The notes: generated by a model not told the origin, from the sequence alone. A stretch of 64,000 nt of DNA from Paramecium tetraurelia (GCA_000165425.1 CT868065.1:62001-126000); one strand, 5' to 3'; shown: positions 3,279 through 33,066, counted from the first letter of the stretch. Numbers and translations are program-made.

Positions 3279-5057
3279 ATGTTTATTTGCTGCAATAATA
3301 AGCCAAAAAAAGAAAAGTAAACTGTGTTTCTAAATAATCTAGTAAATCCGTGAAAAATGGTTCTACCGCTGCTCATTCTGATGCTGAATCAATTAAACAG
3401 AGCAAATGTGAGGAATACACAAACAAAGAGGCAATCCAAGAGATTAAAAATATAGAGCCCATGAACGAAAAAGACAAAAAGCTTTAAGAGATTTAAAACA
3501 TAGTTAACAGAATCAAAGTATACAGAAATCAAGGGAAATTCGATATGAGGTATATATAAATTTAAGTTCTATAGCATCGATATTGAGAAGGCATTCGTAA
3601 CTTCTTTAATTGAATAAGATTTACCAACTACGCATTTTGTTGAGTGTAGATGGGCTGTAAATTATACGAAATTCCTTGAAAGAAATATAGACGATATACC
3701 TCCACCAATTAATAATCATAAATTATTGACTGAAGATAATACCAACAAAGAGATAGTCGTTATCAGATCAGAGAAGGATACTTAGCTTCTTCCAGGTTTA
3801 AAACCAGATAGACACTACGTACTTCTAAATGATAGATCATGGAATTTTATATAACTATTGTATGGTGGAGGACCAACAATAATTATCGATTTGGATATTA
3901 CAGTGATGTCACCAGATATTTTCCATGACGATCTAACTAATGTTACAACCCATACCGCTAACCCTTCCAAAATCTCATTTGATCCAGCCATAGAGATAGC
4001 AAAATATGAAATTTAAAATTTAGAGGAATCAGAAATCACCAACATTAAAAACACAAATGGAAGATCAATTCCACAAAAAACTAATTCGATAAAAATTAAC
4101 CCAAAACCTTATGAACTACCTTATGTCGGTCTCAATAACCCAAAATATTATTGTTACATGAACTCAATTTTATAATGTCTACTTAGCATAAAAGAATTAA
4201 ATAATTCATTAATAAAATACCCAAAATAACAAAATAAGAAATTTACTATGGCTTATCAAGAGTTTTTAAAAGTAGTGTAGAACTCTATCCCAGGGTCATC
4301 TATATCTGTTGAGAAACTCTAAAATATGTGCTTGAATAAGTTTAAATACACGTAGTAACAAGATGCTCATGAATTCTTATTGTATCTCCTTTCAGAAATC
4401 TAAGAAGAATTAGTGGGAAAAAAGCAATATAAAAAAGAAGAATTCCCAAATGCTTAGGAAGCTTGGGATATTTACAAAAGTAGAAATCCTGACATCATAA
4501 CTGATTTATTTGCTGGTCAAATAGCAAGTAAATCCTATTGTTCAAAATGCAAACAGATCAGCGAGGGATTTGATCCAATCTTAGATTTAAATCTTCCTTT
4601 ATAAAAAAATAGTATTCCTAAAGAATACAAATTATATGATTGTCTCTAGAACTACTTTAAAGAAGAGTAAATAAATGATGTTTGGAAATGTGATAGATGC
4701 AATTTTGTAAATAAATCTGTCTTAAGGAAAATTAAACTCACTTAAACTCCAAAATATCTTATTCTTCATCTGAAACGTTTTACCCAAATTCCTAGGAGTC
4801 AAAAAATTACGGATGAAGTTAAATATCCTGAAATTCTCGATATCAAAGAGTTTTGTGAGGAAAATGTAGAATACACTAAATACACTTTGAAGGGAGTGAT
4901 CTCTCACATGGGTTAGTTAAATGGAGGTCATTATGTGGCTTATACTTAAAGATAAAATTAATGGTATAATTTCGATGACAACGTAGTAACCAAAGATAAA
5001 ACTAATCAACATCTCTCCGACAAAGGTGCTTATATAATTTTATACGAATAAAGATGA
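3279..5057 (+). CDS. Ubiquitin-specific protease (C19 USP) with N-terminal DUSP domain
   Basis: DUSP-like PPPINNHKLL...WNFIQLLYGGGP; Cys box GLNNPKYYCYMNSILQCL; QQDAHEF; His box HMGQLNGGHYVAY...WYNFDD. Confidence 0.93.
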
Positions 5058-14493: not shown

Positions 14494-16313
14494 TCACTAA
14501 TTTCTGGGTTTTATTTAAATTTTATCATTCATTATACTTAATCGAACAGCATCACATTCTTCTAAATTGTATGAGAAAAATATTTATAATTGATCCTTCA
14601 AAAAATTGTCTTCTATAAAATAGTCAAACTTTGTCTAACAAATTGGACATTTTATTTGATTTAGATCGATTGTCCCATTTTGATGCAAATCTATTATGCC
14701 CTAATCAAAGGGTTAAGCGTGAGTGCAATTATTACCTCTTATTGGCCTTAATATCTTCTTTTTTGATATTGGACACTATATTCACTTAAATTGTTTTACC
14801 TTCAATTAGATTGTTGTTATAGCTTATTTGCCTTTCAAGATTGATTCTTAATCATTTTTTACAATAACCTTTGTAATTAATTTATTGTTCAAATAATTTA
14901 TGAAGTCCTTTTAATTGATATTTACAAATCCAGTGGTTATTGTAATGAAATTCATCATCTTTACATCTACATAGACTTGTTCATGTAGAGCTGTATCTTT
15001 AGGTTTTTATTTCTTTGTGAATGGATTCTTGCAGAGAGGACAATGATCAATGATATTCCCAGCCATTTTTCCTTCAGCAGGGTTTTAAAATTGATACAAA
15101 ATACAACTCATATACCTTAGATCGCACGTTTGAATCTATTCGCATCTGATGCATCTACAAGGTAGCTCTATCCTCTAACCAGTAAATTAACAAAACTTAA
15201 ATTCCAATTTTTCACTCGCAATCTTGTCTAGTGAATGTTTCTAGTAAAACTCCTCTGTTTTTTCCTGATTGATAAGACTTGTGTAAATCTAATCCACTAT
15301 CTTATAGATTTTAGACTAATAATTTAAGTATTCTGATAATTTTGTAAATGATCTATACTTTATTAAATTAATATCTTGTTTCTCTTCCAAAATGTCCTCC
15401 AATTAACGTTTTTCTTTGTTGTATATGAAGGAAAATCTAAAACTGTAGGACTTTAAACAACTGTTGAATAAATCTTAATCTAAACACAAATCTTCTTCTT
15501 TAATTATTGAATTGCAATCAGGTCTTTTGCATTTAAATTATTTTTCTTTTTTATCAAAATGATGCAATAATGCTGTCAAATCATAGACTTCGAAGTGATT
15601 GCAATTCTAACTCCTGACTGGAATCATCACCTTCATAGAACTCAAAGAGCAATTGTTGTAAAACAAAAAGTTAAAATTCGCATTCCACTTTTAAACAAGC
15701 TGATAGAATTAACTTTATGGCATAATTTCCTTTTTCATCAATTTGGCAATCTATTCAAAATAAGCATTCTACAAACTTCCCATTTTCCCCTTGTGCAATG
15801 GGTAGAATGTTTTATCCACGAAGTTATACATCATATGTTATGGAAATTCCCCACACTATTTCTATTATCATGATAATTACTTTTGATCTTAACTAATTAA
15901 TCAACAAATGAGGAAAGAAGGCTTGTTCTATTTTCTCAAACTTCGTTTAAGATTTACATATAGGACATTGTAATACTTTGGCTGCCTGTTGGGTTGCATT
16001 CGAAAAGTATAATTTCAAAAATTGCTCTAAATCTATTAAAGTATCGTAATGTCTGAAGGACTTAAAACATTCTGCTAAGTAAACCTTTATTTTAGTTATT
16101 TATTAATACTGCATATTTTATTGGTTCTTTTGATAAACTACATTCAAAATTTACAGTCATCGTTTGAGTTAAATTACTAAATTTTTTTGTCCTTTCTTCG
16201 AATTCCTTTTCTATATTCGGGTATTATTCATGCGCCTTTTTTACTTCTAGAATAATAGTTGGTATCTCCATCAAAACTTAAGCAGGTTTAGGTGTATTTG
16301 CTTCGGTATTCAT
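14494..16313 (-). CDS. Protein with two tandem MIZ/SP-RING-like zinc fingers (putative SUMO E3 ligase)
   Basis: CSLSSMKVMIPVRSQNCNHFEVYDL...CKRPDC and CQFTGQRIELPCRCIRCEQIQTCDL...CPLC in the same frame. Confidence 0.75.
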
Positions 16314-22272: not shown

Positions 22273-23109
22273 TCAACTAAAGATATTTTCTAAAAATGTC
22301 TTCTTTTTCTCTTATGGTTATTTCTAAATTTACACTGGTTTAGATGGGGGAGACTAAGACATAAATTATATTTAAGTACAAATCTTCTTGGTTGACTGAC
22401 AGGTCTGCCTTAATATGGTGCGTGATTATACACTGGGGCAACTCTTGATGGAACATAGCTTGGTTGAACATATGATTAAGCAACATATGGTTATGCAACT
22501 GGAGAAACATATTATGGAACAGGTGCAACATATTAAGGAACTTATTGCACAACAGATTAAACGACGGGTTGAGCAACAACTTATTATTAGTGAACCACTT
22601 ATCTCTCAACTGGATAATATTCTACTCTATCTTGAAATCTGTCCACAGGAACATATTCTATTGTTGTTATTTCATATTTATACCTGTAACCTTATCATAA
22701 AATACTTAAGGGATATATTCTGTCTAATATTCCACAGCTTAATATTCAGTGACGTATTTCTCTCTTGGTACTTAGATTCTTTGTCTCACCTCTTCATATT
22801 CAATAACAGATTTCTCATATGGGATATATCTATAAAATATTTGAATTTTGATTCTTACTCAATTCTGCTTTCACCCTTTATCACTTATTAAGCTGGTTGG
22901 ACAGCAACTGGTTATACAATTGGTTGAACTGCCACTGGTTAAGGAACATATTAGACAGGAGCAGCAACAACAGATTATTAAATAGGGTAGTATGATGGAC
23001 TAGCAAATTGCACTGGTGGGGCATATGTTCTTGGTGGTGAATATGCTAATGGCTAATGAGGGGCATTTTAAACTGGTTGAGGAGGTCTTTAAGAAGGATG
23101 ATTGCTCAT
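22273..23109 (-). CDS. EPI: Epiplasmin (membrane-skeleton protein)
   Basis: P/V/Q/Y-rich arms around the conserved core VIKGESRIEYIPYEKSVIEYEEVRQRIQVPREKYVTEYQAVEYQTEYIPQV...VEYYPVERQVV; three short introns. Confidence 0.92.
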
Positions 23110-23382
23110 ATTTTGAATATTAATATTAATTATTTAAAATGTCATCGTTAATCAATTATAACTATGCTCTTTTAATTCATATTATTATACATATCTATCT
23201 TTACATTTTTTATTTCAATCTTATTATTACAATAGATTAAAATGTATTATTTACGAATTAAATCACTCCTTAATATTTTATTGATAGTCAGTTATTAATT
23301 ATTTTATTTGTATATTAATATTTAATAGAATTACAAATAAAAATTATTAAGCATTCTTAGATTAGCATTATATTTTAATTGT

Positions 23383-25305
23383 ATGTCTGCTTTAAGAGTG
23401 GTCTTGTTAGGAGTTTTAGGACATGGAAAAACATACCTATTTAATAAAATAACCAATGCAAATGAAGCTGTAATTTATGGAGGAAAGTCAGTAACAAAAT
23501 AAATTGTGATTGGTTAAGCTGCACATGGAGAATTTGAAGTTGTTGATACACCTGGATTCGATGCATCGGAGGATAAATTATTACACGCTGCTGGTGTAAT
23601 TGCAGCATTGGCATAGGGAGATGTCAACAGAATTCTGATTGTTGTCAAATGTGAAAGAACAGACATCATGATAAAAAATATCAAAAAAGTCATTGGATCA
23701 ATTTAAAGATACAAAGATTTAATCACGATTGTTGTAACTTATTGGGACGAATAATAAAGAAACATACGACATCGTTATAAAAGTTAGGAATCCTAATAAC
23801 AACAAGAATTAGAAGCAAAATATTAAATAGAAACAGCAATTAAAAACAATTTTAATATCTCTTCAGTAATAATTTCTTCATTTGAAGATGATCCTATTAT
23901 TATCACAGAAAAAATAACTAAGATTATTCTTTTATCTCGATTTACTAAAATTCACTTACAAGAATCAGAAATCTATAGTCAATTTGACTTAATAAGCGTA
24001 AGTGAAGAATCTGAAATGGAATTTAATAAATCAATTTCTTAAATTAGGAGTAGTTTTAGAAAAATCTCAAAATTATTTTTAATGTACATAGAAACTTAGT
24101 AACTAAATGAAAATTATTTGATTGACAAATTGCATTACTTATCACTATCTATTAAAAGCATTGCAAATGAATTTATTGAAAAATTTGAAAGGCAATATGG
24201 AGATTATATGAATGAAACCTATGATACAGATGGCATAAATGTAAGATACCTACATCATATTTATCTGAAAAAGGAACTTCGATTGGATCTTGAATAAGTT
24301 ATTAAAAAAGCATAATCTAAAATGAAAGAATCTTAAATTCACTGTTTTAATTGGATTAAATAGTGTCCTTATTGTGGATTAGTCTGGATAAAAGTTGTTG
24401 GTTGTGATAATGAAACTACATGTGGAAATAGGGTAGATTCTTATTTTGACGATCTGCTGGTAAGAACTTAAAATGAAAAGCGTTTCAAAATAATAGTAAA
24501 TAATGATTCTGTTGATATTGAGATATTGGATGAATAAAAAAGTGAAAAAAAATTAGTAATTTAATAAGATCTAAATATATATTAAATATTGTTCAATTCT
24601 ATAAAGGACAATCCTGTATTAAGTAAGAATTTTAAAATTTACTATTCATTTTTTAATTCAGATTCAGATTCGGATTTAGAATAGTTAAAAGTTGAATTGG
24701 TTATTTCTATTTTAGGTTTATAAAGAGTTGACTACTATATTAAAAATATATATGAAGTAGATCAAGAAATGATGATTAATGAGTTCAAATTTCTACTTAG
24801 AGAATCTGGATGGTTCTAATCTGATTTTCCAAACTTGAATTTTTATAAGTAAAAATCATTAGGATGTGGGAATGTAATTGTGTGGAAAGATTTAGCTCCT
24901 CTGAGTGGACCACTTTTATAAGAATTACTATCACCTGAATTGCTTGATTATTTCAATGATCAGGAATAATTATTAAAAGATGAAGCTGACGATATTGCAA
25001 AAGAGTTGGAAAGGACCTATAAAAATCTTATGAATTAAGCAATTACTGAATAATTGAAGAATATAAAAGTAATCCCAAAGCTATTAAATATCATGGAAAC
25101 TTTAGACGATACAGTAAAACAAAAATAGGAACAATATAACTAAAATCTTTAGTAAAATTTTTAAAATCATATTGAAAAAACAAAGATTGAACAATAAAAT
25201 GTTAAAAGAAGATACAGCATTAAAATGAGTATAGATGATAATTTTAATTCAGATACTGAAAATGCTGATAGTTCTCGAATAGAAGTGCCTAAGGATAATC
25301 ATTGA
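23383..25305 (+). CDS. AIG1/GIMAP-like GTPase with split Rcat(RING2)-like Cys domain, copy 1 (640 aa)
   Basis: G1 GVLGHGKT, GGKSVT, G3 DTPG, G4 TYWD; KQCPYCGLVWIKVVGCDNETTCGNR...GCGNVIVW; single frame. Confidence 0.9.
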
Positions 25306-25473
25306 TTACTTTTTGACTTTGCTCGGAATAATCATTTTTAATTAAACTTTAATGATCTGAGTTTATTTTAAATATATTATAAAATTAACTTTCTTAATAG
25401 AAAAATCTTATTCTATTAGAAAGCTACTATCGATATTCATATATATATTGATTTAGAAATAGAAATAGAAATA

Positions 25474-27177
25474 ATGAAAAAATTTAGAATTGCTCTCTTA
25501 GGGTCGATAGGAGCGGGTAAAACTGCTTTTTTTAATCGCATTACATCTTCTAATGAACCTGAAATTTCAGGAGGCCCATCAGTAACAAAAAATGTTGTAG
25601 TTGGATAAGCAACAATAGGTGAGTTTGAAGTAGTAGACACCCCAGGTTTTGAAAGTGAAAGTGACAAATTAGTACATGCTGCTGGTGTTATTGCAGCATT
25701 AACTTTAGGAGATGTTAATCGAATCCTTATATTTGTAAAGTTTGATCGAGATGATAGAATGATTAGTTCAATTCGACAAGTATTGTCTCCGATTAAGAGA
25801 TATAAAGATATCGTAACAATTTTAGTTTCTCATTTCGATCATTCAAGGAATATTGCTGATGATTAAGATCGCTTTTCATAGAGAATAAAATAAGAGTTTA
25901 ATATAGACTCAATTTTATTTTATTCCATCTTATCATTTGACAATAATGATATTTCAATGAAAATCATTAACATCCTAAATTAATCAGATTAGAAATCAAT
26001 TTTATTACAAGATTCAGAAATATTTAGTTAATTTGATTTTATGCAATTAGATGATTACAATTAGACAAAATTAGAAAAGAATTAATCAGCTATTCTACGT
26101 CAATTTAGAAAAACTGCAAGAATATATAAATCATTTATTGAGTCAATAGATTTGAATGACCCTCTACTTATTGATATTTTACATGAATTAACAAAGGATA
26201 TTAAAGCTGAAGCAAATAGGCATGTTGAAGAATTTGAGATTTTGCATGGAGATGAATTAAACGAATTCTTTGATGTATAAGGTGTTAACATTCGATATCT
26301 GCATCATATTTATTTAAAAAAATAAATTTGGTTGGATTTAAATAATGTGATTAAATTAGCCCAAACGACAATGACAAAATGCCAAATTCATATATATCAT
26401 TTCATAAAATTATGTCCATATTGTAAATAACCTTGGATGAAGGTGTTTGGTTGCGATGGAGAAACTAAATGTGGAAATAGAATTCTCCCTTTTGAATAAG
26501 ATGAAATTATTGGTCAAGCATCAGCACCGAAGAAATTTGAAATCAAAATTATAGATAATCAATTATAAGTTGATATTGTCCGTCCTACTAGCTAATAATA
26601 TTCAACTGTAAAGGAGGAAATAAGCTCAAAGTTTAATTAAATATATAAATACTTTAAAAATGATATACATTTTTAGAAACATTTAGGATAGAATTTTACT
26701 AAAACAGACTTATGGAATTTAATGAACTAGAAATTTGGAAATCGTTTAGATGATATTTGTTAAAGGATTAATGATGAGAATAAAGGAAAGCAATTATAAT
26801 AACTCAGAATTTATTTTTATAGTTTTTTTAAAGTTGAAAATGCAGATGATAATTCAAATAAATCGATTGGATGCGGAAGGAAATTTAATTGGTCAGAACA
26901 ACCTCCTTTGAGTGGGCCTGAATTAAATGAATTACTTTCACAAGATTTGATTGATTTTTTTAATAGGGATTAAGAAAAATTATTAAAAGATGAAGCATAT
27001 TTTTTAGAACTTTCATATAAAAAGTTAGTAAAAGATGCCATTGAAGAACAAAAAAAAACTACAAAAATATTATCATCTCAATTTTCCTCACAACAGGAGA
27101 TTAAAGCAAATAACATCTAGTCTAATGTTGCATCAGCCAATAAAGAATATAATTATTTTAAAACTAAAATCTATTGA
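25474..27177 (+). CDS. AIG1/GIMAP-like GTPase with split Rcat-like domain, copy 2 (567 aa)
   Basis: GSIGAGKT, GGPSVT, DTPG, SHFD; KLCPYCKQPWMKVFGCDGETKCGNR...GCGRKFNW. Confidence 0.9.
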
Positions 27178-27327
27178 ATGACCTTTATATCTTATATAAT
27201 TTTAGCATAATTGTTAGTATAATTATTTTGTTATAAATTTTCATTCTTTTTTTAGGAATCAAACAAATGTTGATATATATGTTGAATAAAATTTTAATAG
27301 AATTAATAAAAGCTAATTAAGGAATTT

Positions 27328-28953
27328 ATGGACGTATTAAGAGTTGTTCTTGTAGGTGTTATTGGATCTGGCAAAACTGCATTTTTTAATAATTTGACAA
27401 AGAATTAAGAGCCTGTAAAATAGGGAGGAGCATCTGTTACTAAATAAGTAGTAGTTGGATAATGCATTTTTGGAGAGCAGTTTGAAGTAATTGATACCCC
27501 TGGGTTCGAATCTGATGAAGAAAAATTATTACATGCTGCAGGAGTAATTGCAGCACTTTCAATAGGCGATGTTAATAGAATATTATTAATATAAAAATTT
27601 GACAGAGATGGAGTAATGATGAATGCATTGTAATAAGTCATAGCTCCAATCACTAGATATAGGGATATGGTAACGGTTATAGTATCACATTGGGATCTTT
27701 CAGAAAATAAAGAACAAGATTAATAGCATTTAACAAAGAAAATAAAGGATAGATTTAATATTGGATCTATTCTTTATTATTCTAAACTTAATGATCCTAA
27801 AGTTATCGCTCTATTAGTTTAAAATATAATTTTTGAATCAAAACTAACATCTATTAAATTATCAGATACAGAAATAATTAGTTAGTTTGATTTATCAACT
27901 TTGAATTATGAAAGTCAAGATAAATTAGAAAGAGATAAAGAATAAATTATTAAGTCATTTAGAAAGACGGCATAGGTGTTTATTAAATATATAAATGAAG
28001 AGGTTAATTTGGATGACCCTAAAGCTGTTGATATTTTGCATTTTATATCATTAGAAATTAAGAATATTGCAAATAAATAAGTGGAGCAGTTTGAAAAATA
28101 GCATGGAGAACAACTTAATGAGTTTTATGATACGAATGGAATTAATGTTAGCTATTTACATCATATATATCTAAAAAAAGAAATAAAAAAGGATCTTGAA
28201 AAGGTAATTAAATTGGCTTAAGAAAAAATGATTAATTCAAAAAATCATTGTTTTTAATGTTTAAAACAATGTCCACATTGTAAATTAATATGGATTAAAG
28301 TTGCTGGATGTGATGGATAAACTACTTGTGGAAATAGAGTTTATACCACTTCAGATTCATTATTGAAAAACTCTTCAACTAAATGTAGATACGAAATTGA
28401 ATTAGAATCAAACAAATTAGTGTTGAAAGAAATTTAATTCAGTAATACACAAAATACATCTTAGAAATCATAGTCTGATTCAAATTAAGATTATATTTAC
28501 CAAATTATAAGGGAGGATAAGTATTTATAGAAAGTTCTTGGACAAAACTTTACAAAGGATTAATTTGAGAAGTTAATAAGAGAGAAGAATGATATGAATT
28601 AAAATTTAATGTATTCATTTTTGAGGTTGAAACCTGATGATGATATAATTAAATGGATTTACTAATAGTTGGATATAGAAAGGGATATTGAAAAATAAAA
28701 TGATAAGAAAAATAAAAGATTTGGCTGCGGATAAGAATTAATTTGGTCAGAATTGCCACCCTTGAGTGGACCTGAATTAAATGAATTACTATCAATTGAA
28801 TTAATAGATTATTTCAATGATTAGGCATAATTAATTAATGACGAAAGTAAATTCTTAGAGGCAGCTTATAAAGACCTTGTTAACCAAGCTATATAAGAGC
28901 AATATAAGACAAAGAAAGTGATCTAATTGTAAAAGTAGAGTGAAACATAATGA
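27328..28953 (+). CDS. AIG1/GIMAP-like GTPase with split Rcat-like domain, copy 3 (541 aa)
   Basis: GVIGSGKT, GGASVT, DTPG, SHWD; KQCPHCKLIWIKVAGCDGQTTCGNR...GCGQELIW. Confidence 0.9.
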
Positions 28954-30020: not shown

Positions 30021-32583
<2,563 letters not shown>

Positions 32584-33066
32584 GTGTTATTAACTTTTAA
32601 AAAAAAGATTTAAAATTTTCCATAATTAAAACAAGCATTTATATTATTTGCGCATAAATAATTGTTAATTAAACCTACCAATGACATCTCATTGTAATTA
32701 TAATATGATGAATATTCAATAAACAATAATCTCATTTATTATAGATTCAATATTACGCTCCTTTATATTCACAATATCTCACATTATTCACGTACAACAT
32801 GAATAAACCTTGTCCTTATCTGCCAATTTAATGCACACAATTGAAGTGTGCTTCAAAACAGTTATACCTGCATTTAGTTTGCAATCTTGGGATTCTGAGG
32901 GATTTTATCATTGAAATTCAGATCTAGGGATTTATTCAACTGCATTTTGATTGAACAGTTTCGCATTTATTCTATACACATGTTGTTATCTTAAATTAAT
33001 AATCTCAAGTTTATATTGAAGAACTTTATTCATTTTTATAAATGAACAAATAATTAAAGTGATAAA

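What the first reader, a model, noticed from the sequence alone, without database searches (positions are those of the whole stretch)
23383..28953. Tandem array of three GIMAP/AIG1-like GTPases fused to an RBR Rcat(RING2)-like Cys module: candidate GTPase-ubiquitin ligase defence system
Seen: three head-to-tail paralogs (640, 567 and 541 aa, gaps of 168 and 150 bp). Each has G1 GxxGxGKT, GGxSVT, DTPG, a conserved K-[CF]-[DE]-R and G4 [TS]-[YH]-[WF]-D, then a helical region (YLHHIYLKK), then KxCPxCx3WxKVxGCDx2TxCGNR and later GCGx4W. Known: these G motifs fit AIG1/GIMAP TRAFAC GTPases, which are linked to immunity in animals and plants. KxCPxC..KxxGC..C..C..W is the pattern of the RBR E3 catalytic Rcat domain, whose GC cysteine forms the ubiquitin thioester. 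Inference: a GTPase with a stand-alone Rcat-like Cys and no RING1/IBR could be a GTP-regulated transthiolating ligase acting on bacteria, endosymbionts or vacuoles. I know of no characterised protein with this architecture.
Basis: partly seen in the sequence, partly recalled or inferred. Interest (0 to 1): 0.82.

Follow-up and report, generated by a model that had tools for sequence, protein, structure and literature searches.

The report
GIMAP-like GTPases with five-cysteine zinc module
Three neighbouring Paramecium genes belong to a widespread, unstudied family of immune-type GTPases ending in a small zinc-binding module with one spare conserved cysteine; its likeness to a ubiquitin-ligase active site is real but weak and unproven.

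Summary

They belong to a large, unnamed eukaryotic family (338 representative hits). Members come from ciliates, Physarum, a dinoflagellate, an octocoral and a bdelloid rotifer. The architecture is constant:
- a TRAFAC G domain that is Era/FeoB/GIMAP-like;
- a three-helix stalk;
- a Cys module, CPxC..W.K..GC[DE]G.T.CG, then 28-129 aa, then GCGxxxxW.

Four cysteines are invariant and probably bind one Zn. The 'GC' cysteine is kept in 119 of 127 modules. Six proteins replace it with S, F or R and keep the other four, so it is probably not a Zn ligand.

Four independent searches rank RBR/IBR proteins nearest to the module's first ~25 residues, but none is significant. HMMER and Pfam find no IBR. 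A second Zn site, a conserved His, RING1 and IBR are all absent.

Some relatives carry Crinkler-N, SAM or ankyrin domains, and none carries a ubiquitin-system domain. Expression depends on conditions.

Best reading: a GTP-switched, GIMAP-like scaffold with a zinc-ribbon head. The ligase idea is neither refuted nor supported (about 0.2).

The parts
23383..25305 (+). Gene 1, 640 aa (P0001): G domain + stalk + Cys module + long polar C-terminal tail
   Evidence: ORF under table 6, stop TGA. An RNA-like contig covers 23350-25326 collinearly, with no gaps.
25474..27177 (+). Gene 2, 567 aa (P0002)
   Evidence: Contig 25481-27183, collinear. A P. octaurelia ortholog is 90% identical.
27328..28953 (+). 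Gene 3, 541 aa (P0003)
   Evidence: Contig pieces cover 27309-28940. AlphaFold2 model with mean pLDDT 81.
23383..23952 (+). G domain of gene 1 (residues 1-190): G1 GVLGHGKT, G2 SVT, G3 DTPG, KCER box, G4 TYWD
   Evidence: Pfam MMR_HSR1 E 4e-9; alignment; translation.
25474..26043 (+). G domain of gene 2 (residues 1-190)
   Evidence: Pfam MMR_HSR1 E 8e-10.
27328..27897 (+). G domain of gene 3 (residues 1-190)
   Evidence: Pfam MMR_HSR1 E 8e-9. Fold matches to GIMAP7/2, Era and FeoB.
24355..24435 (+). Cys module, first part, gene 1: IKQCPYCGLVWIKVVGCDNETTCGNRV (C1, C2, the 'GC' cysteine, C4)
24856..24906 (+). Cys module, second part, gene 1: SLGCGNVIVWKDLAPLS (C5)
26404..26484 (+). Cys module, first part, gene 2: IKLCPYCKQPWMKVFGCDGETKCGNRI
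26863..26913 (+). Cys module, second part, gene 2: SIGCGRKFNWSEQPPLS
28261..28341 (+). Cys module, first part, gene 3: LKQCPHCKLIWIKVAGCDGQTTCGNRV (C315, C318, C328, C334)
28717..28767 (+). Cys module, second part, gene 3: RFGCGQELIWSELPPLS (C467)

Best explanation
The three genes are tandem paralogs of an uncharacterised but widespread eukaryotic family. Each protein has three parts.

1. A GTP-binding domain of the Era/FeoB/GIMAP kind, with intact G1-G4 motifs.
2. A stalk of three long helices, as in GIMAP7, atlastin and GBP1.
3. A small C-terminal module in which four invariant cysteines most likely hold one zinc ion. These are the CPxC knuckle, the C of 'CG' and the C of 'GCG'. A fifth, nearly invariant cysteine sits free in a GC[DE]G loop.

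Proposed mechanism (inferred, not shown): the G domain acts as a nucleotide-dependent switch or dimeriser, as in the GIMAP/septin-like clade. The stalk carries that state to the zinc-ribbon head. The head is a binding or assembly surface for a target such as a membrane, a protein or a nucleic acid. The spare cysteine would be a regulatory or reactive site rather than a proven catalytic one.

Several traits fit a conflict- or stress-type role better than housekeeping: expansion of the family, tandem duplication, fast-diverging inserts, fusions in relatives (Crinkler-N, SAM, ankyrin) and condition-dependent transcription.

Shown here: gene structure, family membership, motif conservation, the fold class of the G domain, and transcription.

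Inferred: zinc binding, GTP-driven assembly, the role of the head, and any role in defence.
For: Genes and motifs.

Family: 338 hits at E<=1e-3. Most listed full-length hits are about 420-520 aa and carry G1 at the N-terminus, CPxC..W near residue 300-340 and GCGxxxxW 28-129 aa later.

Taxa: several Paramecium species, Tetrahymena, Physarum, Cladocopium, Dendronephthya and Didymodactylos.

Cysteine conservation was measured with HMMs of the module run over all 168 proteins stored at the time:
- C1 127/127
- C2 127/127
- GC cysteine 119/127
- C4 125/127 (both misses are truncations)
- C5 108/108
Six proteins, in four lineages, have S, F or R at the GC position and keep the other four cysteines.

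Fold:

Fusions in relatives: Crinkler-N, SAM, ankyrin and second G domains.

The tandem trio is old.

Transcription:
- Run X3 has contigs that stop at the ORF ends: 23350-25326 at depth 42.6, 25481-27183 at 134.5, and 27309-28940 in pieces at 6.7-18.
- Three oligo-dT RNA runs give depth 0-3 over the genes, against 21-77 and 6-30 on the neighbours. The few reads on the genes lie in the sense orientation.
Against: - Nothing here shows zinc binding, GTP hydrolysis, oligomerisation or a binding partner.
- I could not read model coordinates, so the assignment of Zn ligands rests on conservation only.
- The G domain is not clearly GIMAP. The window proteins miss Pfam AIG1 at E<=1. Their best sequence matches are Der, Era and EngA.
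- The spare cysteine is 94% conserved inside a conserved GC[DE]GxT loop. That much conservation calls for a specific chemical role, and a passive 'binding head' does not explain it.
- RBR ligases keep coming up as the nearest named neighbours of the module.
- No membrane anchor (TM segment, CaaX) is visible in the three sequences.
- The tool labels X3 'RNA?' as a guess. The contig-boundary argument is my inference.
Confidence: 0.5

Rival explanations
1. The module is a cut-down RBR Rcat (RING2). The four invariant cysteines form the first Rcat zinc site, and the GC cysteine is the nucleophile. It would accept ubiquitin (or a ubiquitin-like protein) from an E2 and pass it on, with GTP state gating access. 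That would make the protein a GTP-regulated transthiolating ligase.
For: RBR/IBR proteins are the nearest named relatives of the module in four weak searches.
- Foldseek against PDB: rank 2 is RNF216 (7m4m_B), 25 columns, 40% identity, rmsd 1.9 A, E 5.3.
- Foldseek against BFVD: ranks 1, 3, 5 and 36 are giant-virus RBR/TRIAD3 ligases, E 0.9-5. Ranks 3 and 5 cover 25-26 columns at 36-38% identity and rmsd 2.0-2.1 A.
- ESM Atlas feature search: the only Pfam families shown are IBR and IBR_2, with scores 0.79, 0.79 and 0.75. An IBR cluster also appears among the structure neighbours at TM 0.27.

The GC cysteine is conserved in 119/127 modules and is the only one of the five that tolerates replacement, as expected of a non-ligand. 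One lineage has Ser there.

The spacing C-P-x-C-x3-hydrophobic-x-K-x2-G-C matches the Rcat pattern as I recall it. This is recalled, not tested.
Against: Every one of those hits is non-significant.
- The Foldseek E-values are 0.9-5.3.
- The Atlas scores are below the 0.9 bar.

Sequence searches find no IBR or RBR.
- No Pfam IBR on the whole proteins at E<=1, nor on the C-terminal halves at E<=10.
- IBR is not among the 25 families that most A3 rows match.
- A module-only profile against all PDB sequences at E<=10 gave two chance hits and no RBR.
- The 40-aa first parts gave no RBR either, and one of them matched antibody frameworks at E 4e-5. That shows how easily such a short motif matches by chance.

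Rcat features that are missing:
- only five conserved cysteines and no conserved His, so there is no second Zn site and no His two residues after the cysteine (that position is Gly in 99/127);
- the fourth ligand lies 28-129 residues away;
- no RING1, IBR, UBA, UBL or E2-like domain in the window proteins or in the 20 longer relatives scanned.
Confidence: 0.2
2. The spare cysteine is a site of modification or sensing rather than catalysis. One option is S-acylation, which would tether the head to a membrane; this family lacks the TM, CaaX or myristoyl anchors of GIMAPs, GBPs and IRGs. The other options are a redox switch or a metal-bridging thiol that controls assembly.
For: - The cysteine is conserved and probably free.
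- It sits next to conserved Trp and Lys residues: W 115/127 and K 105/127.
- No other membrane anchor is seen in the three sequences.
- The structural relatives GIMAP, atlastin and GBP act on membranes (their biology is recalled).
Against: No direct evidence. The strictly conserved GC[DE]GxT context is more elaborate than acylation sites usually need. No tool here predicts acylation or redox behaviour.
Confidence: 0.12
3. The proteins are Era/Der-type ribosome- or RNA-associated GTPases, and the zinc ribbon binds RNA. On this view the function is housekeeping or translational control, not conflict.
For: - The best sequence matches of the G domain are Der, EngA and Era.
- Several weak Foldseek hits of the module are ribosomal or polymerase zinc-ribbon proteins.
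Against: - All NCBIfam scores are far below cut-off, for example Era at 41 bits against 116.
- The family is patchy, expanded and tandemly duplicated. Its inserts diverge fast, and relatives carry Crinkler-N, SAM or ankyrin fusions.
- The genes are nearly silent in three poly(A) RNA runs in which their neighbours are expressed.
- There is no KH or other known RNA-binding domain.
Confidence: 0.06

Closest known systems
GIMAP/AIG1 (IAN) GTPases, e.g. human GIMAP7 and GIMAP2 (PDB 3zjc, 2xtn)
   Same: - A TRAFAC G domain followed by helices that extend from it.
- Best Foldseek hits of the full model, and the longest aligned stretches by VIA-align: 187 and 179 residues.
- A G4 of the [TS]-H/Y-x-D type in place of NKxD (the typing is recalled).
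- Pfam AIG1 matches 35 of the 50 rows of A3.
- Tandem gene arrays and lineage-specific expansion (the GIMAP biology is recalled).
   Different: - The window proteins do not reach Pfam AIG1, even at E<=1.
- Era and FeoB tie with GIMAP structurally.
- The stalk is longer.
- The C-terminus is a Cys/Zn module rather than a TM anchor or a plain coiled coil.
- I found no description of this module in the GIMAP/AIG1 papers I searched.
RBR E3 ligase catalytic domain Rcat/RING2 (RNF216/TRIAD3, parkin, HHARI, HOIP)
   Same: - A local ~25-residue stretch: a CPxC knuckle, a hydrophobic residue, Lys, then G-C, then another Cys.
- It aligns to RNF216 and to giant-virus RBR ligases at 36-40% identity and about 2 A rmsd.
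- The GC cysteine is conserved and probably not a Zn ligand.
   Different: - No hit is statistically significant.
- There is no IBR/Rcat match by Pfam or HMMER.
- There is one Zn site rather than two.
- The fourth ligand comes after a 28-129 residue insert.
- There is no His near the cysteine.
- There is no RING1 or IBR.
Rubredoxin-type / zinc-ribbon knuckle domains
   Same: - A CPxCG first knuckle and four invariant cysteines.
- A small three-stranded beta core.
- A weak Pfam Zn_ribbon_3 hit, E 0.06.
   Different: - The second 'knuckle' is split by a long insert that contains a beta-hairpin.
- There is a fifth conserved cysteine in a GC[DE]GxT loop.
- No Pfam family covers the module.
GTPase-E3 fusions TRIM23 (RING ... 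ARF domain) and RNF112 (RING + GBP-like GTPase) (recalled, not examined here)
   Same: One polypeptide that couples a GTPase to a (putative) ubiquitin-ligase zinc module.
   Different: Those use canonical RING domains at the N-terminus and other GTPase classes. No RING was found here.
Dynamin-superfamily immune or membrane GTPases (GBP1, atlastin-1, Irga6)
   Same: A G domain plus an elongated helical stalk. Foldseek alignments run to 360-400 columns.
   Different: The TM-scores are low (0.22-0.32). The G domain is smaller and lacks their insertions. The sequence signal is Era/GIMAP-like rather than dynamin-like. PADLOC matches to LeoA/LeoBC are weak (E 1e-3 to 5e-7).

Membership tests
AIG1/GIMAP (Pfam PF04548) | Match to the AIG1 profile at or above its gathering score (27 bits) | tested here: not met
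   The three window proteins give no AIG1 hit at E<=1. Among relatives, 35 of the 50 rows of A3 match at E<=10, best 6.3e-10. P0037 scores 38.3 bits, above the cut-off. The family is therefore AIG1-related, but the window proteins are not members by Pfam's rule.
AIG1/GIMAP (Pfam PF04548) | G domain fold closest to the solved GIMAP structures | tested here: inconclusive
AIG1/GIMAP (Pfam PF04548) | G4 of the T-H/R-x-D type, and a 'conserved box' between G3 and G4 (definition recalled) | tested here: inconclusive
   TYWD, SHFD and SHWD are present, and D123 is nearly invariant in A2. A conserved stretch, AL..GDVNRIL..VK[CF][DE]R, lies between G3 and G4. I did not align it to GIMAP sequences.
RBR E3 ligase Rcat/IBR (Pfam PF01485, PF22605) | Match to the IBR-type profile or to solved RBR sequences | tested here: not met
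   No IBR hit on the whole proteins at E<=1, nor on the C-terminal halves at E<=10. IBR is not among the 25 families that most A3 rows match. The module-only profile A4 against 177,635 PDB sequences at E<=10 gave two chance hits and no RBR. The 40-aa pieces gave no RBR.
RBR E3 ligase Rcat/IBR (Pfam PF01485, PF22605) | Fold of an IBR/Rcat zinc domain | tested here: inconclusive
RBR E3 ligase Rcat/IBR (Pfam PF01485, PF22605) | Two zinc sites (eight Cys/His ligands) in the domain | tested here: not met
   Only five conserved cysteines. The only position with frequent His is the variable x of CPxC, 46/127.
RBR E3 ligase Rcat/IBR (Pfam PF01485, PF22605) | A conserved non-ligand cysteine in a G-C context between the first knuckle and the third ligand | tested here: met
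   Cys in 119/127 modules, preceded by Gly in 111/127. It is replaced by S, F or R in six proteins that keep the other four cysteines.
RBR E3 ligase Rcat/IBR (Pfam PF01485, PF22605) | RING1 and IBR domains upstream of Rcat | tested here: not met
   No RING or IBR family was found in the window proteins or in the 20 longer relatives.
RBR E3 ligase Rcat/IBR (Pfam PF01485, PF22605) | Ubiquitin thioester on the catalytic cysteine | not testable with these tools
   This needs biochemistry.
Zinc ribbon / rubredoxin-like knuckle fold | Four invariant Cys in two turn motifs on a small beta core | tested here: met

The most novel reading that the evidence does not exclude
The family is an ancient eukaryotic class of GTP-gated, cysteine-dependent transfer enzymes. 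A GIMAP-like switch would control a minimal, single-zinc, Rcat-derived active site, whose GC cysteine forms a thioester with ubiquitin or a ubiquitin-like protein (or another acyl group). It would tag invaders, vacuoles or self targets without RING1 or IBR. That would be a new class of E3-like enzyme, shared by ciliates, amoebozoans, dinoflagellates, cnidarians and rotifers.
Probability: 0.15. Interest if true: 0.85.

Novelty: new variant of a known kind. Interest (0 to 1): 0.52.

Why it matters
GIMAP/AIG1-type GTPases are tied to immunity in animals and plants, yet how they act is still unclear. This family links such a G domain and stalk to a sharply conserved Cys/Zn module. No Pfam model covers that module, and my literature searches found no description of it (these cover only the held open-access library).

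The family spans at least three eukaryotic supergroups. In some lineages it is fused to Crinkler-N, SAM or ankyrin domains, which are typical of conflict and death-signalling proteins.

Paramecium and Tetrahymena are tractable hosts for RNAi, tagging and infection models, so the function of the module and of its spare cysteine can be tested directly. If the cysteine turns out to be catalytic, this would be a new, minimal kind of ubiquitin-ligase chemistry under GTP control. If it does not, the family still defines a new output domain for GIMAP-like switches.

Tried and rejected
- Whole-genome look-up for the window: none is held.
- Earlier findings of this scan: nothing by sequence or by words.
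- The search for homologous proteins with the A2 profile reached only Paramecium orthologs and a few generic GTPases, because of the word index. The module-region search gave 11 proteins in the 'near' length range and only P0042 in the 'longer' range.
- Viral-contig scan with the module profile: 54 pattern matches, none confirmed.
- Genome-contig scan: one 15-residue match in a high-GC actinobacterial frame with no CPxC. I rejected it as chance.
- I wanted an IBR/Rcat alignment for a profile-profile test. PF01485 rang in none of the prokaryote control genomes, and the window holds no RBR gene, so hhalign against IBR could not be run.
- The look-up of sequencing runs listed no holder that is on record as RNA. 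Only the later lay of reads is used as evidence.
I dropped the step, so dimerisation remains untested.
- PADLOC gave only weak LeoA/LeoBC matches. NCBIfam gave only sub-threshold Era, Der and small_GTP matches.
- A weak Pfam MZB (MrfA Zn-binding) hit on P0042, E 4e-5, has no single stretch that passes on its own. I did not pursue it.
- Literature: the Crinkler survey 'Transposons to toxins' is not held, so I could not see whether it lists a GTPase of this kind. The accession numbers of the Tetrahymena and P. tetraurelia relatives occur in no held paper.
- The passages I read in PMC3417536, PMC7159879, PMC8857920, PMC12845241 and PMC12957317 (term searches only) do not mention this module.

Full report
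**What is there**

The window is AT-rich (GC 0.23-0.38). It reads as protein only with the ciliate nuclear code, in which TAA and TAG encode Gln and TGA is the only stop.

Under table 6 there are three + strand ORFs, at 23383-25305, 25474-27177 and 27328-28953. They encode 640, 567 and 541 aa and are separated by 168 and 150 bp of 16-18% GC spacer. tblastn finds no further copy in the window.

The neighbours are ordinary ciliate genes. They include WD40 proteins, a UPRTase, EF-2, a USP-type deubiquitinase, an SP-RING protein, an RCC1 protein, a NIF phosphatase and a TBC protein. None is an RBR ligase.

**Gene models and transcription**

In one public run (X3), which the tool labels 'RNA?' as a guess, the assembled contigs lie collinear on the genome with no gaps. 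They stop at the ORF borders:
- 23350-25326 at depth 42.6;
- 25481-27183 at depth 134.5;
- 27309-28940 in pieces, at depth 6.7-18.

The spacers are uncovered. I read this as three separate, intronless mRNAs with very short UTRs. That is an inference from the contig boundaries and is not shown by the tool.

Three oligo-dT RNA-seq runs laid as raw reads (X22-X24) give a different picture. Depth over the three genes is 0-3. The upstream neighbour is at 21-77 and the downstream UPRTase at 6-30. The few reads on the genes have the mate orientation opposite to that of the minus-strand neighbours, which means sense transcripts. Expression therefore depends on conditions. I do not know which conditions.

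**The family**

A whole-library HMMER search with gene 2 gave 338 representatives at E<=1e-3, 101 at E<=1e-10 and 10 at E<=1e-30. Most of the listed full-length hits are about 420-520 aa. They carry G1 near the N-terminus, CPxC..W around residue 300-340, and GCGxxxxW 28-129 residues later.

Named members come from:
- Paramecium octaurelia, pentaurelia, primaurelia, sonneborni and tetraurelia ('G domain-containing protein');
- Tetrahymena thermophila, where the protein is annotated 'signal recognition particle receptor beta subunit', probably by a weak SRPRB match;
- Physarum polycephalum;
- the dinoflagellate Cladocopium goreaui;
- the octocoral Dendronephthya gigantea;
- the bdelloid rotifer Didymodactylos carnosus.

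One ankyrin-bearing member sits on a 3.8-kb contig labelled as a Bacteroidota MAG. The ESM Atlas holds family clusters of 366 and 64 members, mostly ciliate.

A maximum-likelihood tree of 16 sequences (none dropped) puts the three window genes in three separate ortholog clades, with support 100/99, 100/100 and 100/100. Genes 2 and 3 are sisters (99/96). The tandem trio therefore predates the split of these aurelia species.

**G domain and stalk**

Pfam gives only MMR_HSR1 for the window proteins (E about 1e-9) and no AIG1 at E<=1. Sequence matches to solved structures are led by Der, EngA and Era, with GIMAP2 at E about 0.6. A family profile raises GIMAP4 to 3e-11 and GIMAP7 to 2e-9, still behind the two-domain Der.

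Scanned one by one, 35 of the 50 rows of A3 match AIG1, best E 6e-10, and 7 match Septin. One relative passes the AIG1 cut-off.

'GIMAP-like' is a fair description of the shape and of the family's affinities. By Pfam's rule the window proteins are not AIG1 members.

**The Cys module**

The alignment A2 was chosen for having both motifs, so it cannot be used to measure their conservation. I therefore built HMMs of the two halves of the module and ran them over all 168 proteins stored at that point.

| Position | Conserved |
|---|---|
| C1 | 127/127 |
| C2 | 127/127 |
| 'GC' cysteine | 119/127 |
| C4 | 125/127 (both misses are truncated fragments) |
| C5, in GCG | 108/108 |

These counts include near-duplicates and the three repeats of P0042.

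The eight exceptions at the GC position break down as follows:
- two are truncations;
- six are substitutions: Ser in P0024/P0165 and in P0020, Phe in P0013/P0097, and Arg in P0109.

Five of these six keep C1, C2 and C4, and P0020 keeps C1 and C2 with its alignment ending near C4. The four full-length ones also keep the C5 GCG motif. Their G1/G3 motifs are complete in three (P0024, P0165, P0109) and partly variant in the other three.

The simplest reading is one Zn site made by C1, C2, C4 and C5, with a fifth cysteine that is not needed for folding. Around that cysteine the loop is itself conserved: G at -1 in 111/127, D or E at +1 in 104/127, G at +2 in 99/127 and T at +4 in 106/127. There is no conserved His.

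A module-only model was made from a short-insert relative (pLDDT 78, with blocks of 93 on both Cys-bearing parts). In sequence order it has:
- a strand;
- the CPxC knuckle;
- a strand;
- the GC loop;
- a strand ending in C4;
- a beta-hairpin insert;
- GCG followed by a strand.

This is a small zinc ribbon. In Paramecium the insert also carries about 80 residues of helices. I could not read model coordinates, so Cys-Cys distances were not measured.

**Is it an Rcat?**

For:
- RBR ligases are the nearest named neighbours of the first ~25 residues in four different searches. These are RNF216 in PDB, the parkin Zn domains, giant-virus RBR/TRIAD3 proteins at ranks 1, 3, 5 and 36 of BFVD, and IBR/IBR_2 as the only Pfam families among the language-model neighbours.

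Against:
- Pfam and HMMER see no IBR or RBR, even at E<=10.
- As a control on chance, the same 40-residue piece of gene 1 matches antibody heavy-chain frameworks at E 4e-5.
- The second Zn site, a conserved His (in RBRs, as I recall, one lies two residues after the catalytic cysteine), RING1 and IBR are all absent. The fourth ligand is 28-129 residues away.
- None of the 20 longer relatives carries a ubiquitin-system domain. Their extras are Crinkler-N, SAM, ankyrin and second G domains.

I could not run a profile-profile test against IBR, because no RBR sequence could be obtained.

**How it most likely works**

I commit, at about 0.5, to a GTP-switched GIMAP-like scaffold. Nucleotide state would control dimerisation or assembly through the G domain. 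The stalk would carry that state to the zinc-ribbon head. The head would bind the target, and the free cysteine would be a reactive or regulatory site.

Several traits favour a conflict- or stress-type role over housekeeping: the family's expansion, its tandem arrays, its fast-changing inserts, the conflict-type fusions in relatives, and conditional expression. All the steps from 'binds GTP' onward are inferred.

The ligase reading stays open at about 0.2. The conservation of the GC[DE]GxT loop asks for an explanation that a passive head does not give. The remaining rivals are smaller: a modified or redox-sensing cysteine at about 0.12, and an Era/Der-like RNA-associated role at about 0.06.

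**Novelty**

No Pfam, NCBIfam or PADLOC model covers the module. My searches of the held literature found no description of this architecture. The library is open-access only, and one relevant survey was not held.

I rate the finding a new variant of a known kind: a GIMAP-like GTPase with an undescribed output module. The family is real, old and testable in a tractable organism.

Noticed in passing
window 3549-5057 (+): A USP-type deubiquitinase with a DUSP domain (Pfam UCH E 5e-56, DUSP E 1e-14). It is about 18 kb from the GTPase trio. There is no reason to link the two.
   Followed up: no
window 14782-15867 (-): An ORF with a weak MIZ/SP-RING zinc finger (E 1.5e-7, 31.5 bits, just under the 33.5 cut-off). 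It may be a SUMO-ligase-like gene.
   Followed up: no
window 22500-23107: RNA reads over the upstream neighbour differ from the window at 12 sites, mostly A>G and T>C, in 13-80% of reads. A shared loose end, 'GGCAGGGTGATTGCTC', occurs at 23094 in 32-67 reads per run. The cause is probably a strain or allele difference, reads from a duplicate gene, or a splice or transcript end. It is unexplained.
   Followed up: no
window 25481 and 25740 (run X3): Two X3 contigs carry 28 and 246 letters that do not fit the window just upstream of, or inside, the start of gene 2. They may be chimeric contigs or come from a close paralog.
   Followed up: no
P0042 (metagenomic relative, 812 aa): It has three near-identical ~233-residue repeats of stalk plus Cys module, placed after a truncated G domain. 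It is either a real internal triplication or an assembly artefact.
   Followed up: partly
P0046, P0112, P0066, P0078 (relatives): These family members are fused to other domains: a Crinkler N-terminal domain (E 7e-14), SAM domains (E 1e-12 and 6e-5) and ankyrin repeats. The ankyrin form is labelled as a Bacteroidota MAG on a 3.8-kb contig, which may reflect a binning error or a symbiont effector.
   Followed up: partly
P0011 (Tetrahymena thermophila relative): It is annotated in public records as 'signal recognition particle receptor beta subunit'. It has the full G domain + stalk + Cys module architecture of this family, so the name is probably a mis-transfer from a weak SRPRB match.
   Followed up: partly
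window 24340-24459 (gene 1, residues 320-359): This 40-residue piece matches antibody heavy-chain framework 2 (W[VI][RK]Q.PG.GLEW[VI]) in 729 PDB sequences, best E 4e-5. It is a chance look-alike, and a useful warning about short-motif matches.
   Followed up: yes
window 30213-32768 (-): An EF-2 gene whose long ORF starts with about 130 residues of non-EF-2-like sequence. The real 5' exons are presumably interrupted by the tiny introns typical of Paramecium. The three GTPase genes, in contrast, have none.
   Followed up: no
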